From: the human T2T-CHM13v2.0 reference genome, Homo sapiens
NCBI RefSeq assembly: GCF_009914755.1
Contig: NC_060926.1
DNA: 64,000 bases
Strand: one strand, 5' to 3'
The position numbers and the translations under genes are program-made. Every line of letters starts with the position of its first letter. The first letter of the stretch is position 1. This document shows positions 30,000 through 56,474 of this stretch, one piece after another. The notes below the pieces were generated by a model, which made no database searches, was not told the DNA's origin, and saw nothing but the letters and a program-made list of their open reading frames with translations.

Positions 30000-30454
30000 A
30001 TATTTTTAAAGCTCAGCTATATTTTGATGTGGAATTTGATATGTTTGGAATATCAGCCATATAAAATGGATAAGGCATTAATTTGATACTCCTTACCTTC
30101 CCATTTGTGTTACTGAGTTTCTACAATCATACATTTTTTTTCTGTGTTTTTTAGATTATCAGACATAGTATTTTTGTTGGGGTTCCTGAATTTGATTCCT
30201 CTAAAACTACACAGGACAGTGAGTGAGGTCTTGATGAATTGTCTAATACTACTTTGGTCCGATACAAAATAAAAAGTTTAAATTTTCTCATAGCTTTTCT
30301 GAAATGTCAGTCATCTTATGTTTGTAGTGATTCTTTTAATGTTTACTTTTGCGTTTTTTTAAAAAAGACTTAGGAAAAGATTGTCCTGGATGATGTTGCT
30401 ATTGGGAGATAATGCAAATTGCTCTAAGATTTTTTTTTTTTTTTTTTTTTTAAG

Positions 30455-48354: not shown

Positions 48355-48690
<336 letters not shown>

Positions 48691-48713
48691 AGTAATTACA
48701 AGTTGTAAATAAG

Positions 48714-51893: not shown

Positions 51894-52046
51894 GACAGGT
51901 TGCTTGGAAGCGAGCTGTCAAAGGTGTTCGAGAAATGTGTGATGTGTGCGACACCACCATCTTCAACCTGCACTGGGTGTGTCCTCGGTGTGGGTTTGGA
52001 GTATGTGTGGACTGCTACCGGATGAAGAGAAAGAATTGCCAACAGG
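51894..52046 (+). CDS. KDM3A: KDM3A exon 13, C6-type zinc finger (CDVC...[15 protein letters not shown])
   Basis: gcag|GACAG ... CAGG|gtgaga; 153 nt; Cys/His pattern of the KDM3/Hairless zinc finger. Confidence 0.97.
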
Positions 52047-52282: not shown

Positions 52283-52624
52283 GTATTTCATGTGCTGCAG
52301 TGATTTTCTTTCCCCTTGTCTTGGTTAACTCATGGGAGCTGGTAGTTTTGTTTTCCTTTATTACTCGTTAAGTTTATTTTAGTGTGTATTGTAAGTTGTC
52401 CAGAAATATATTAGATAATTCCTCCAACACTTTTCGAGTCAAGTTTTGTGGGATAGTTTTGTAGTAGAAAAGAAAATGCATTTTGGGGAAGGCCTCTGGA
52501 GCAGGATGAAAAGGAGGGAGTGGGAAAAGTAATCCTGTGGGGAATGCCAGCTTCTGCTCTGTAATGTTGAGGTTGAAAGTTCCTAATATCCTTGTTCAGA
52601 TGTTTGCCTCTGCCCTTTCTTTAG

Positions 52625-52752
52625 CACTCTATGATGTTGGAGACATTGTTCATTCTGTAAGAGCGAAATGGGGAATAAAGGCAAACTGCCCTTGTTCAAA
52701 CAGGCAATTCAAACTCTTTTCAAAGCCAGCCTCAAAGGAAGACCTAAAACAG
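52625..52752 (+). CDS. KDM3A: KDM3A exon 15 (ALYDVGD...EDLKQ)
   Basis: ttag|CACT ... CAG|gtattt; 128 nt. Confidence 0.96.
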
Positions 52753-53422
52753 GTATTTACTGCTTATGTTAAATTCAACATCTCTTGTAATTGTCATTTG
52801 TCTGTTTTTCAAATAACCCAAGGATTTCTATCAGTGCATTTGAAAGGAACCTGGGGATAGCTATCAAGTGGAAAGAGAGAGAGAAAGAATTCATACAGTT
52901 CATGTGACAGTTCAGAGACCCGTTCTGACTTTTCACATTACTTTCGTAGACTCTACTGTGGCCTCTTGTAGTAGGTTTTACATTTTTGTTTCTTGAAGAA
53001 GCACAAAGTTCTAAAGTAGTCTACCTAATAAGTAGCTGTCGAATTTGTAAAGGGTTTAAAAAAATTTTTTGTGTATTTTGCAGAATTAAAATTATTAAGA
53101 TAAGCTTTAACATTTTTAAAATTACTAAATATATTTTGCCTGTGTTTATGCAGAGTTGAAGGAAATGATGAAATGAACCTTTAGTTGCCCATCACACAAT
53201 GTAAAAAATGTTAATTTTCTCAGTCCTCATATGTCTCTCCTTGGTGGCATCCCTCTCCTCCCCACCATCACATGTACGTCTTGCTGTCCCTTCTCCCCCT
53301 CGTTCCAGTAATCAGTATGCCGCATTGTGTTTAATAATCAGAAATTTACATTTCTATAAAGCTGTGGTGTCATAAGGCAGGATGGGAGAGCAGAAGACTT
53401 GTAATATTTGGAGTCAGAACTG

Positions 53423-53731
53423 AATTTGAGTTCTTTTCCTTCCACGTGCTAGTTGTGTTACTTTGGCTGAAGTGAGCTGGTTTCTATGTGCTTCAGCTTC
53501 CTCATCAGTAATATAGAAATAAGAAGCAATATTGATGATTGGGCATCACAGAATTACATCACATGTAAAGAGAGGGCCTGGACCACAACAGGGGTTTGAA
53601 TATTTTTTTTCCTCCTTCTTATGTATGTATAAACTCACTCTTGCCAGTTTTTAAAATTATTTTCTTCTACAGCAGTCATCTTAGATTTAATTTATGGGTT
53701 CTTTTAAGAGCTCATCACATTTTTAAAGCTA
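53423..53731 (+). repeat. Left arm of inverted duplication (part of a MIR plus unique flank)
   Basis: Reverse complement aligns to 54732-55052 at ~91%. Confidence 0.95.
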
Positions 53732-54183
53732 AGTCAAAATAGCATTTTCTCTTTCTCTGCATCCCATTTCCTTCTGAAATCACCGCTTTACCTTTCCTGC
53801 CTGCGTCATTTATTCGTTTTTAACCATGTTTTCTGTGCCTATCCTGAATTCTGGGATGAGTTCATAGGGGAGACAGGCACAAACTGGTCATTTTAAACCA
53901 GCATGGTACATAGAGTAATAGGGATATGTACCAGCAGGGGCTGGTGAAAGGGTGCGGGGGGTAATACCTTGCTGTGTTTAAGTTGCTGACATCTCTCCTA
54001 CCTTTTAGTTATTCTCTACTAGTGCGGGATTACTGCAGCTGTGGGGATACCCAGGGCTAACTATTAGGTGGTTTTGTTCTGGATATTTATCTTACTTGTT
54101 GGTCGGCTATTAGGAGAGAAGAAAAGAAAAGGAAGCTGTCATTCTTCAGCTTATGTAAAATCGTCCTTTAATGCTTAACACAG

Positions 54184-54379
54184 ACTTCTTTAGCTGGAGA
54201 AAAACCGACTCTTGGTGCAGTGCTCCAGCAGAATCCCTCAGTGTTGGAGCCAGCAGCTGTGGGTGGGGAAGCAGCCTCCAAGCCAGCCGGCAGCATGAAG
54301 CCTGCCTGTCCAGCCAGCACATCTCCTCTAAACTGGCTGGCCGACCTAACCAGCGGGAATGTCAACAAGGAAAACAAGG
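54184..54379 (+). CDS. KDM3A: KDM3A exon 16 (TSLAGEK...SPLNWLADL...KENK)
   Basis: acag|ACT ... AAGG|gtgagt; 196 nt. Confidence 0.96.
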
Positions 54380-54731
54380 GTGAGTGTTTCCTGCTTTTGT
54401 GTTTGTTCTTGAGTATTTTAGTCCATTCGTGGAAGGACTTGAGAGAACAGTGGTTAGAAGTCGTGTGGAATGGAAAGTGCTTCTCTGGAGTCATCCTGGA
54501 ACCTGCCACAAATGAAAGTGTTTTTGAAATGCAGCACCAAAGAGGAGAAATTTTGCTGCATTAAAATTTAGGGACTTCCACCTTCTGGCTGTGTTACAGA
54601 AGAGAAGAATTGCAGGCCACTTCTTTCATGCAAAGATCTGGAGCAAAATTTTAATGAATCAAATTTGACACTGTAAATGAAGGAATATTTGAATGTTAGA
54701 CTACATCTGAATTTCTGGAAAAACCTTTATA

Positions 54732-55052
54732 TAGCTTTAAAAATGTGATAAGGAGCTCTTAAAAGAACTCATAAATTAAGTCTAAGATGACTGTTGTAGA
54801 AAAAAATAATTTGAAAAGCTGGCAAGAGCACAGCTGGTGAGTTTATACATACCTTAGAAAGAGGAAAAGGAATATTCAAACTCCTGTTGTGGTCCAGGCC
54901 CTCTCTTTACATGTGATGTAATTCTGTGATGCCCAATCATCAATACTGCTCATTATTTCTGTATTACTGATGAGGAAGCTGAAGCATATAGAAACCAGCT
55001 CATTTGAGCCGAAGTAAGACAATTAGCAAGTGGCCGGAAAAGAATTCAAGTT
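54732..55052 (-). repeat. Right arm of inverted duplication
   Basis: Reverse complement aligns to 53423-53731; 63-bp perfect core 54883-54945 = 53530-53592. Confidence 0.95.
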
Positions 55053-55261
55053 TTTCAAGGTTTTTCCAGAAATGAAGATACAGTCTGACATTCAAAAATG
55101 TAGAAGAATCATGGGACAAGATGCAGGAAAACATTAAGTAAAATTCAGTACCTGTTAATGATTTACAAAAAACTTCTTAAATTAAGAACATTCTTAATCA
55201 AGAGTTTAAACCAAAAAACAAGACTGGAGACATCATAAATAGTCGTTGAATTTTTTTAAAA

Positions 55262-55490
55262 ATTTGTTTTGAGTTTTTTTGAGACGGAATCTTGCTCTGT
55301 CCAGCCAGGCTGGAGTGCAGTGGCATGATCTTGGCTCACTGCAACACTGCACTCTGCCTCCCAGGTTCAAGCCATTGTCCTGCCTCAGCCTCCTAAATAG
55401 CTAGGATTATAGACGCCTGCCACCACGCCCTGCTAACATTTGTATTTTTAGTAGAAGTGGGGTTTTGCCATGTTGGCCAAGCTGGTCTTT
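55262..55490 (-). mobile_element. Alu (antisense, 5'-truncated) within old L1 ORF2 fragments (~55055-55870)
   Basis: gagacggaatcttgctct...ggccaagctggtc; flanking gaacaagacaaaggatatctg...ttgtactggaagtcct is L1 RT-like. Confidence 0.85.
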
Positions 55491-55946
55491 GAGGTTTTTG
55501 TTTGTTTGGTTTTGTTTTTTTTTTTTTAAACAGTTTCTGTGTTCAAGAACAAGACAAAGGATATCTGTTTTCACTCTTTATTAAGCATTGTACTGGAAGT
55601 CCTGGTCAGTGCATTCAGGGAAAAAAAATGTGTAAAGAGAATGCTGCCAATATTTGTAGACAGTACATGCAAAAAATCCAAAAGAATCTACATTTACTAA
55701 ACATTTGTCAGGGTTGCTAGATACAAAGGTCAATTTACAAAATTCCATTGTACTGGATAGTTATTGTTTTTAACATCAGTGAGGAATCGTCTAAGTAAAT
55801 CATATCATTCATACTTACTCCCTAAAGTATTTTTTTTGTTTCAGTAAATAGAAAGCAAGTTCTAAAGTAATTCTGCTAGTAGAATACTAATAAGGGATTT
55901 GCCTTTCAGAATGTTTTTTCATCTGGATGTTTTGGTTTTATTTTAG

Positions 55947-56119
55947 AAAAACAACCAACAATGCCAATTTTAAAGAATGAAATCAAATGCCTTCCACCCC
56001 TCCCACCTTTAAGCAAATCCAGCACAGTCCTCCATACGTTTAACAGCACAATTTTGACACCCGTAAGCAACAACAATTCTGGTTTCCTCCGGAATCTCTT
56101 GAATTCTTCTACAGGAAAG
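55947..56119 (+). CDS. KDM3A: KDM3A exon 17, with LxxLL nuclear-receptor box LRNLL (56087-56101)
   Basis: ttag|AAAA ... AAG|gtatgt; 173 nt. Confidence 0.96.
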
Positions 56120-56474
56120 GTATGTGTTTGTTTGTTGGTATTCCATGTTTTAAAGTTGAAGACAGAACAGGAAGAGAGTAGAGAAGTTGGAACTGAAAGT
56201 AGAAAGGAGACTGAATCACATACTTACCTTTGTGGGTTCAGAAGGCTGAGTCACTGGAGGATGGGTTTTATGGGACTATAGTTCTGAGCTGGGCCACTTT
56301 CTCCTGTTACCTCACTTCTATGAGTTGTCAAGTGGGGACAGGGGACGTACCTTTTTGCCTGGGGGTCCTGGCTTGGAATCTTCTGGATATGTAATCTATA
56401 CTCATTATGGGAATGGAGTTTCTTGATGGTAAGGGAATGACATATTTGAGACTTTTGTTCTTTCTCCAATTCAG

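What the first reader, a model, noticed from the sequence alone, without database searches (positions are those of the whole stretch)
53423..55052. Non-Alu ~310-bp inverted duplication bracketing frame-shifting KDM3A exon 16, with mismatches biased toward G-U pairs
Seen: 53423-53731 is the reverse complement of 54732-55052. By manual alignment there are 27 substitutions, two indels (9 and 3 nt) and a 63-bp perfect core. The 1000-nt loop contains only exon 16 (196 nt). The match includes MIR sequence but extends well over 100 bp into unique flank and is far more similar than independent MIR copies, so it is a local duplication. The MIR continues upstream only on the left, and the right arm appears to interrupt an old L1 fragment, so the right arm is probably the derived copy. 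Of 18 transition mismatches, 14 give G-U pairs in the sense pre-mRNA and 4 give A-C. Exon 16 has a weak acceptor (tttaatgcttaacacag). Skipping it gives AAA AAC AAC CAA CAA TGC CAA TTT TAA, a stop at 55971 before the LxxLL and JmjC regions. Inference: a long dsRNA stem could loop out exon 16 (NMD or a catalytically dead isoform), drive a single-exon circRNA, attract ADAR, or mediate a genomic micro-inversion. Caveat: transcription-associated A>G/C>T mutational asymmetry could also produce the G-U bias.
Basis: partly seen in the sequence, partly recalled or inferred. Interest (0 to 1): 0.8.

Follow-up and report, generated by a model that had tools for sequence, protein, structure and literature searches.

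The report
Inverted intronic duplication around KDM3A exon 16
A 310-base stretch of one KDM3A intron was copied backwards into the next intron tens of millions of years ago, so the RNA around exon 16 can fold into a very long double-stranded stem, but nothing here shows that the cell uses it.

Summary
53423-53731 is the reverse complement of 54732-55052, with 27 substitutions, indels of 9 and 3 nt, and a 63-nt perfect core. Fourteen transition mismatches give G-U and 4 give A-C. The human genome holds only these two copies, so this is a local duplication and not a repeat family.

New here: the right arm sits between a second, 43-nt inverted repeat (54685-54727 / 55057-55099). The inserted block is therefore a two-piece, reverse-complement templated insertion, as replication template switching would make, next to an old L1 ORF2 fragment.

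The predicted RNA duplex is about 295 bp at -474 kcal/mol. That is stronger than each of the five Alu pairs folded from this window.

The G-U bias is not clearly beyond the local mutation bias. Twelve Alus in the same transcription unit give 55-63% G-U-making transitions, so P = 0.04-0.15. The transition:transversion ratio is ordinary.

No paper in the library names a KDM3A exon-16 circle, exon-16 skipping or RNA editing here.

Verdict: a real structure of a known kind (an intronic inverted repeat flanking an exon), most likely neutral. ADAR editing and low-level back-splicing or skipping are predicted but untested.

The parts
53423..53731 (+). Left arm (L), in intron 15. Inferred to be the source copy. 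About 53423-53600 looks MIR-like (recalled) and 53601-53731 is unique intron.
   Evidence: L ends 452 nt upstream of the exon 16 acceptor.
54732..55052 (+). Right arm (R), in intron 16. It is the reverse-complement copy of L (321 nt, with 9-nt and 3-nt extra stretches) and is inferred to be the derived copy.
   Evidence: R starts 352 nt downstream of the exon 16 donor.
53530..53592 (+). 63-nt perfect core of the duplex. Its partner is 54883-54945.
   Evidence: In simulation, a longest run of 63 or more has P about 0.03.
53732..54731 (+). 1000-nt loop between the arms.
54184..54379 (+). KDM3A exon 16 (196 nt, shifts the frame if skipped). It is the only exon in the loop.
   Evidence: Hub annotation.
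54685..54727 (+). A: a 43-nt inverted copy of the sequence just beyond the right arm. It is part of the inserted block.
   Evidence: I3, 86% complementary; E = 5e-4 genome-wide.
54728..54731 (+). 4-nt junction stretch (TATA) between A and R, matching neither template.
55053..55056 (+). 4-nt junction stretch (TTTC) between R and A'. It may instead be L1 sequence, which is not resolved.
55057..55099 (+). A': the template of A, running on into the L1-like right flank.
55094..55171 (+). Old L1 ORF2 (reverse-transcriptase region) fragment in + orientation, forming the right flank of the insertion.
   Evidence: 55118-55171 is 84% identical to chr13 locus L003:616-670; score 34.5 against a null of 11.9 +/- 1.8, 0 of 300 shuffles. 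L003:677-892 hits LINE-1 ORF2p at E = 1e-4 to 3e-4.

Best explanation
A neutral, primate-age inverted micro-duplication made by template switching. A 372-nt block (54685-55056) was inserted into intron 16 at the edge of, or within, an old L1 ORF2 fragment. The block consists of a reverse-complement copy of the 43 nt immediately downstream, about 4 nt of junction sequence, and then a reverse-complement copy of about 310 nt of intron 15 lying 1.3 kb upstream. A nascent DNA end that twice copies the wrong strand nearby before returning to its template would give this pattern (a FoSTeS/MMBIR-type event, or a large version of the 'four-point' template switch). As a by-product, the KDM3A pre-mRNA now carries the longest and best-matched inverted repeat found in this 64-kb window. 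The arms are predicted to anneal into a duplex of about 295 bp that encloses exon 16 in a 1-kb loop. The most likely consequences are promiscuous ADAR editing of the arms and minor amounts of exon-16 back-splicing or of exon 15-17 splicing. The latter gives a premature stop and would be an NMD target. Exon 16 stays in the selected RefSeq mRNA. Shown: the anatomy, the uniqueness, the junction structure and the thermodynamics. Inferred: the mutational mechanism, the age and all RNA-level consequences.
For: Exactly two copies in the genome. Equal mismatch density in the MIR-like part (16/178) and the unique part (11/131), so one event copied both. R is bracketed by a 43-nt, 86% inverted repeat that begins 4 nt outside each end of R; L has no such bracket. 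The right flank is L1 ORF2-like in + orientation, so A' is collinear with its surroundings and A is the out-of-place piece. K2P distance between the arms is 0.094, which gives about 21-47 My at 1.0-2.2e-9 per site per year. Duplex energy is -474 kcal/mol, and 295 L:R pairs appear in the MFE fold of 53380-55110. That is stronger than all five Alu:Alu pairs folded, which range from -267 to -356, and it is the top inverted repeat in the window scan. Neutrality: the G-U excess is within reach of the local mutational asymmetry. In 12 Alus, GU-making versus AC-making transitions are 188 vs 145 at non-CpG sites, 86 vs 53 for rare variants and 250 vs 202 with CpG included. The expected G-U fraction is 0.55-0.63, so P(>=14/18) = 0.04-0.15. 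The ts:tv of 18:9 fits the local transition fraction of 0.61, P = 0.36. Template switching is known to create inverted repeats and hairpins in human and ape genomes (PMC5453318, passages read; PMC8794818 and PMC7954356, search listing only).
Against: The G-U excess (14:4) and the 63-nt perfect core (P about 0.03) are both nominally unusual. Together they could reflect constraint on the duplex or gene conversion between the arms. Microhomology at the junctions is 4 nt or less and cannot be judged after this much divergence. No outgroup genome was available, so the insertion polarity, the age and the neutral rate are not directly shown. Known template-switch mutations described in PMC5453318 are tens of bp, and this one is about ten times larger. 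The left flank of the insertion could not be shown to be L1 with any tool.
Confidence: 0.7

Rival explanations
1. A selected, primate-specific RNA switch. The L:R duplex is maintained to loop out exon 16 and tune KDM3A dosage by unproductive splicing (premature stop and NMD), or to make a functional single-exon circRNA. The mismatches are filtered towards G-U wobble pairs.
For: 14 of 18 transition mismatches keep wobble pairing, P = 0.015 one-sided against 50:50. A perfect core of 63 nt has P about 0.03. It is the strongest duplex among those tested in the gene. The exon 16 acceptor tract is in the lower range, third lowest of 22. Skipping gives an NMD-type stop.
Against: Against the locally measured mutational asymmetry the G-U excess has P = 0.04-0.15. 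Transversions are not depleted. Two indels bulge the stem. The exon 16 donor is strong. No paper in the library reports a KDM3A exon-16 circle, exon-16 skipping or editing cluster. Two large circRNA supplement sets hold no KDM3A entry.
Confidence: 0.1
2. The two arms are independent insertions of one repeat family (as inverted Alu pairs are), not a local duplication.
For: Part of the arm looks MIR-like (recalled consensus only).
Against: Genome-wide search finds only these two copies. Homology runs 131 nt past the MIR-like part at the same mismatch density. No other copy was detectable in the window by nhmmer at E<=1. The genome search skips very common words, so it is not exhaustive for old repeats, but 91% identity is far above what old repeats share.
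Confidence: 0.02
3. The polarity is the reverse: R is ancestral and L is the copy.
For: None found. Indel polarity is unknown.
Against: Only R is bracketed by the 43-nt inverted repeat and the short junction stretches. From the recalled consensus, the MIR-like sequence runs on upstream of L but stops at the edge of R.
Confidence: 0.05
4. Its main significance is at the DNA level: the arms mediate recurrent inversion of the 1-kb spacer, flipping exon 16, by recombination between inverted repeats.
For: Inverted arms of about 310 bp lie 1 kb apart.
Against: Identity is only 88-91% and the longest perfect block is 63 nt. That is short for homologous recombination in mammals (established knowledge, recalled). 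An inversion would destroy the reading frame. Only one assembly was available.
Confidence: 0.03

Closest known systems
Intronic reverse-complementary matches (inverted Alu pairs and non-repetitive complementary sequences) that flank circularised or skipped exons
   Same: Two inverted complementary stretches lie in the introns on either side of an exon and are predicted to pair across it. The general principle is stated in the abstract of PMC8938519 (listing). The size is similar to an Alu pair (about 300 nt).
   Different: The arms are not transposon copies but a unique local duplication. It has a higher match (91%) and lower energy than the five Alu pairs folded here. No back-splice product is documented for this exon.
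Template-switch mutations (four-point model; FoSTeS/MMBIR-type templated insertions)
   Same: The inserted sequence is the reverse complement of nearby sequence and creates an inverted repeat and a potential hairpin. Two templates were used in series (PMC5453318, passages read).
   Different: The copied fragments are 321 and 43 nt and one template lies about 1.3 kb away, whereas the described evolutionary events are tens of bp and very local.
Genome-wide 'inverted duplicates' catalogued in mammals (PMC5398296)
   Same: Two reverse-complementary arms plus a spacer. That study capped the spacer at 1000 nt, which is exactly the spacer length here (passages read).
   Different: That study's tests of function were made on intergenic inverted duplicates, whereas this one is intronic and brackets a coding exon. 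KDM3A does not occur in its main text.
Long dsRNA substrates of ADAR (inverted Alu pairs in introns and UTRs)
   Same: A long, near-perfect intramolecular duplex in a transcribed region.
   Different: Editing at this locus is not shown. No editing data could be consulted.

Membership tests
Exon-flanking intronic complementary sequences (circRNA/skip-promoting inverted repeats) | Inverted complementary sequences in the upstream and downstream introns of the same exon(s) | tested here: met
   L is in intron 15 and R in intron 16. Exon 16 is the only exon between them (hub annotation).
Exon-flanking intronic complementary sequences (circRNA/skip-promoting inverted repeats) | Pairing across the exon is favoured over competing pairings | tested here: met
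   295 L:R pairs in the MFE fold of 53380-55110. No third copy in the genome. The local A:A' hairpin (-48.8 kcal/mol) is not chosen.
Exon-flanking intronic complementary sequences (circRNA/skip-promoting inverted repeats) | An observed back-splice (54379>54184) or skip (52752>55947) junction that depends on the arms | not testable with these tools
   No RNA data. Literature searches were negative. One supplement of PMC3764148 has a gene-level KDM3A row without exon coordinates, and I did not read its column headings.
Template-switch / templated inverted insertion | The inserted segment is the reverse complement of nearby sequence | tested here: met
   R matches L 1.0-1.3 kb upstream. A matches A' 329 nt downstream.
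Template-switch / templated inverted insertion | Microhomology at the switch points | tested here: inconclusive
   By eye, homology at the junctions is 4 nt or less. About 9% divergence since the event blurs it.
Template-switch / templated inverted insertion | An ancestral allele without the insertion in an outgroup | not testable with these tools
   No other primate genome is held.
Pair of independent transposon copies (inverted Alu type) | Homology confined to the element, with many other copies in the genome | tested here: not met
   Homology extends 131 nt beyond the MIR-like part. Two copies genome-wide.
Conserved long-range RNA structure regulating splicing | Covariation or a reduced substitution rate in the paired regions | tested here: inconclusive
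   Only the within-genome surrogate was possible. The G-U bias gives P = 0.04-0.15 against local asymmetry. The ts:tv ratio is ordinary.
ADAR substrate dsRNA | Clustered A-to-I sites in the arms | not testable with these tools
   No editing database or RNA-seq available. The literature search found nothing for this locus.

The most novel reading that the evidence does not exclude
The duplex is a selected, anthropoid-specific dosage valve for KDM3A. The 295-bp stem loops out exon 16 to divert a regulated share of transcripts to NMD or to a circle. ADAR or helicases set that share. Wobble-biased mismatches and the 63-nt perfect core are footprints of purifying selection or arm-to-arm gene conversion that keeps the stem intact.
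Probability: 0.07. Interest if true: 0.6.

Novelty: new member of a known kind. Interest (0 to 1): 0.3.

Why it matters
If it is only what the evidence shows, it is a clean natural example of two known things. First, one multi-step template switch can create a long RNA stem around an exon in a single event. Second, the local transcription-linked mutation bias by itself pushes mismatches in such stems towards G-U. That is a caution for anyone who reads wobble bias as selection. It would be a convenient test locus. The two arms are unique in the genome, so deleting one arm tests the effect of a long dsRNA on splicing, circularisation and editing without the background of a million Alus. KDM3A dosage matters for spermatogenesis and sex determination (literature passages). 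A real effect on exon 16 inclusion would therefore have a phenotype to look for.

Tried and rejected
1. Other MIR-like copies in the window, to confirm the MIR assignment and its upstream continuation. BLAST and nhmmer at E<=1 found none, so the MIR claim stays untested.

2. L1 identity of the flanks.
- Pfam on 5 stop-free translations gave 0 families.
- Genome protein searches gave only weak hits, E = 0.2 and 0.5, or self only.
- PDB sequence search with window fragments gave a chance hit or nothing.
- Pfam on the left flank, read with X at the stops, gave nothing.
- DNA alignment of the left flank to the chr13 L1 copy was not above shuffles, P = 0.79.
- Only the indirect chain worked: window 55094-55171 matches chr13 locus L003, and the adjacent L003 translation hits LINE-1 ORF2p.

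3. Retroposition as the origin was rejected. There is no poly-A or poly-T at either end of R.

4. L1 twin-priming as the source of the A/A' repeat was rejected. The spacer between A and A' is a copy of intron 15, not L1.

5. Rfam scan of 52600-56200. It gave only Alu-related sub-threshold hits at 55279-55435 and weak chance hits. Nothing fell in the arms.

6. JmjC position by Pfam on single exons gave no hit. That exon 16 lies before the JmjC domain is recalled. The LxxLL position was confirmed.

7. circRNA catalogues.
- Supplements of PMC8938519 and PMC5660143 hold no KDM3A entry.
- PMC3764148 has gene-level rows only.
- One further paper is not held.
- circBase, circAtlas and REDIportal could not be consulted.

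Full report
**Observation**

The repeat finder returns the pair as three collinear inverted blocks covering 53423-53731 and 54732-55052. A global alignment of the left arm (L) with the reverse complement of the right arm (R) gives these figures:
- 282 identities and 27 substitutions.
- Two indels, 9 nt and 3 nt, both extra in R.
- A longest perfect run of 63 nt.
- 18 transitions, of which 14 read as G-U and 4 as A-C in the sense RNA.
- 9 transversions.

The spacer is exactly 1000 nt and holds only exon 16 (196 nt). L ends 452 nt before the acceptor and R begins 352 nt after the donor.

Skipping exon 16 gives eight codons and then TAA at 55971-55973, 146 nt upstream of the next exon junction. 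The only LxxLL motif in the in-window coding sequence is at residue 885, after exon 16, which covers residues 773-837. That the JmjC domain lies further downstream is recalled. Pfam on single exons gave no hit.

The acceptor is only relatively weak. It has 11 pyrimidines of 17, third lowest of the 22 acceptors compared. The donor is strong, matching 8 of 9 positions.

**Is it a repeat family or a local duplication?**

Three searches of the whole 3.1-Gb assembly were run, with L, with L plus flanks and with R plus flanks. They find only these two places. The tool warns that it skips very common words, so it is not exhaustive for old repeats. No other copy is detectable in the 64-kb window by BLAST or nhmmer.

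Mismatch density is the same in the part I take to be MIR (16 of 178) and in the unique part (11 of 131). One event therefore copied both. The MIR assignment, and the claim that the MIR continues upstream only on the left, rest on a recalled consensus. No tool here could test them.

**New anatomy: the right arm is part of a compound insertion**

R is bracketed by a second inverted repeat, A at 54685-54727 and A' at 55057-55099. It is 43 nt and 86% complementary. Each copy begins 4 nt outside an end of R, with TATA on the left and TTTC on the right. It is also seen (E = 5e-4 genome-wide; E = 1e-8 in the window). L has no such bracket.

To the right, 55118-55171 is 84% identical to a chr13 locus. 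The alignment extends over 55094-55171 and beats all 300 shuffles. The adjacent translation of that chr13 locus matches human LINE-1 ORF2 protein, 8uw3_A residues 633-693, with E between 1e-4 and 3e-4. The right flank is therefore an old L1 reverse-transcriptase fragment in + orientation. A' runs into it, and A is the piece in the wrong orientation.

The left flank translates to a string that reminds me of the start of the L1 RT domain. No tool supported this. 'Interrupts an L1' is therefore only half shown.

The inserted block is thus 54685-55056 (372 nt). It is a reverse copy of the 43 nt just downstream, then 4 nt, then a reverse copy of about 310 nt from 1.3 kb upstream, then 4 nt.

There is no poly-A or poly-T, so it is not a retrocopy. 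An L1 twin-priming inversion does not fit, because the spacer between A and A' is intron 15 sequence.

Two serial reverse-complement copies of nearby templates are what replication template switching produces. The four-point model of Löytynoja and Goldman describes such events in human and chimpanzee and notes that they create inverted repeats and hairpins (PMC5453318, passages read). Those events are tens of bp, so this one is an unusually large, two-template case. The mechanism is inferred and not shown.

**Age**

The K2P distance between the arms is 0.094, which is about 21-47 My at 1.0-2.2e-9 per site per year. The 15 Alus of the window differ by 14-27% from their own majority consensus. 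That figure is inflated by the mix of subfamilies, but they are clearly older than the arms. I expect the insertion in apes and Old World monkeys and possibly in New World monkeys. No outgroup genome could be consulted.

**RNA structure**

The arms are predicted to form a duplex of -474 kcal/mol. In the MFE fold of 53380-55110, 295 L:R pairs form and the competing A:A' hairpin (-48.8 kcal/mol) does not.

Five Alu:Alu pairs from the window give -267 to -356 kcal/mol. In a scan of the whole window for inverted repeats of at least 60 nt within 8 kb, this pair ranks first of 16 pairs, and a second collinear block of it ranks sixth. The other 14 all fall on Alu-scale repeat positions, 13 of them between Alus aligned and one at a weaker Alu-like hit. 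Rfam finds nothing in the arms.

**The G-U bias**

Against 50:50, 14 of 18 has P = 0.015 one-sided and 0.031 two-sided. A mismatch reads as G-U if the sense strand suffered A>G or C>T, and as A-C if it suffered T>C or G>A.

I measured these four changes on the sense strand in the 12 Alus that lie inside the main KDM3A transcription unit, six in each orientation. I used their majority consensus and excluded CpG-derived columns. The counts, as changes over sites, were:
- A>G 79/787 against T>C 59/786.
- C>T 109/765 against G>A 86/781.

That is 188 G-U-making against 145 A-C-making changes. With rare variants only it is 86 against 53, and with CpG included it is 250 against 202.

Weighted by the arm composition, the expected G-U share is 0.55-0.63. 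This gives P(>=14 of 18) of 0.043, 0.057 or 0.147, depending on the estimate.

Transversions always break pairs, and they are not depleted. The arms show 18:9 against a local transition fraction of 0.61, P = 0.36. Taken over all 27 substitutions, the G-U count has P = 0.05-0.12.

A small residual excess cannot be excluded. The 63-nt perfect core has P about 0.03 under uniform scatter. That could be chance, a gene-conversion tract or constraint.

**Literature**

No paper in the library contains 'circKDM3A' or 'hsa-KDM3A'. Searches combining KDM3A or JMJD1A with circRNA, hsa_circ, back-splicing, A-to-I, exon skipping and NMD returned nothing about this exon. I judged this from the listings, and I read the KDM3A passages of PMC13392297 and PMC6419433.

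A mouse circ-Kdm3a exists, but its exons are not given in the passages read (PMC5153657).

KDM3A is absent from the held supplements of PMC8938519 and PMC5660143. Stored files may be truncated. PMC3764148 has a gene-level row for KDM3A with a value of 2 in one file and NA in two others. It gives no exon coordinates, and I did not read the column headings. circBase, circAtlas and REDIportal could not be queried, and these may well hold entries that bear on this.

**Verdict**

Functionally it belongs to a known kind: intronic complementary sequences flanking an exon, and long dsRNA of the type ADAR edits.

The best-supported reading is a neutral by-product of a template-switch insertion, with predicted but unmeasured RNA consequences (confidence about 0.7). 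A selected splicing or circRNA switch is not excluded (about 0.1 for the rival as stated, 0.07 for the fuller novel case).

Noticed in passing
window 48380-48701 and 55243-55545: An inverted Alu pair brackets exons 12-16. Its best block is 111 nt at 85% and the predicted duplex is -356 kcal/mol with 231 bp. It is a candidate driver of a multi-exon KDM3A circle and a competitor for the downstream intron.
   Followed up: partly
window 20414-55545 (12 Alus inside the KDM3A transcription unit): There is a sense-strand transition asymmetry. The A>G rate is 1.34 times T>C and the C>T rate is 1.29 times G>A at non-CpG sites. With rare variants only, the ratios are 1.88 and 1.53. The C>T over G>A direction is opposite to what I recalled from the classic mammalian study, so it may be local or an artefact of the home-made consensus.
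   Followed up: partly
window, all 15 Alus aligned (5503-55545): All 15 Alus differ by 14-27% from their majority consensus, which has lost most CpGs. The window seems to hold only old Alus and is Alu-poor (15 in 64 kb).
   Followed up: no
window 30435-30454: The exon 6 acceptor is preceded by an uninterrupted pyrimidine run of 22 nt, ending in 20 T directly before AAG. It is by far the longest tract in the gene, and the length of such a T run might vary between people.
   Followed up: no
window 51896-52045 (exon 13): The single-exon translation gives sub-threshold zinc-binding domain hits (C1_2 at E = 0.0013 and others). This is consistent with the zinc finger I recall for KDM3A, upstream of exon 16.
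   Followed up: no
window 53897-53947: A weak Rfam match to mir-15_2 (25 bits against a gathering score of 80, E = 0.05) lies inside the loop upstream of exon 16. It is most likely chance.
   Followed up: no
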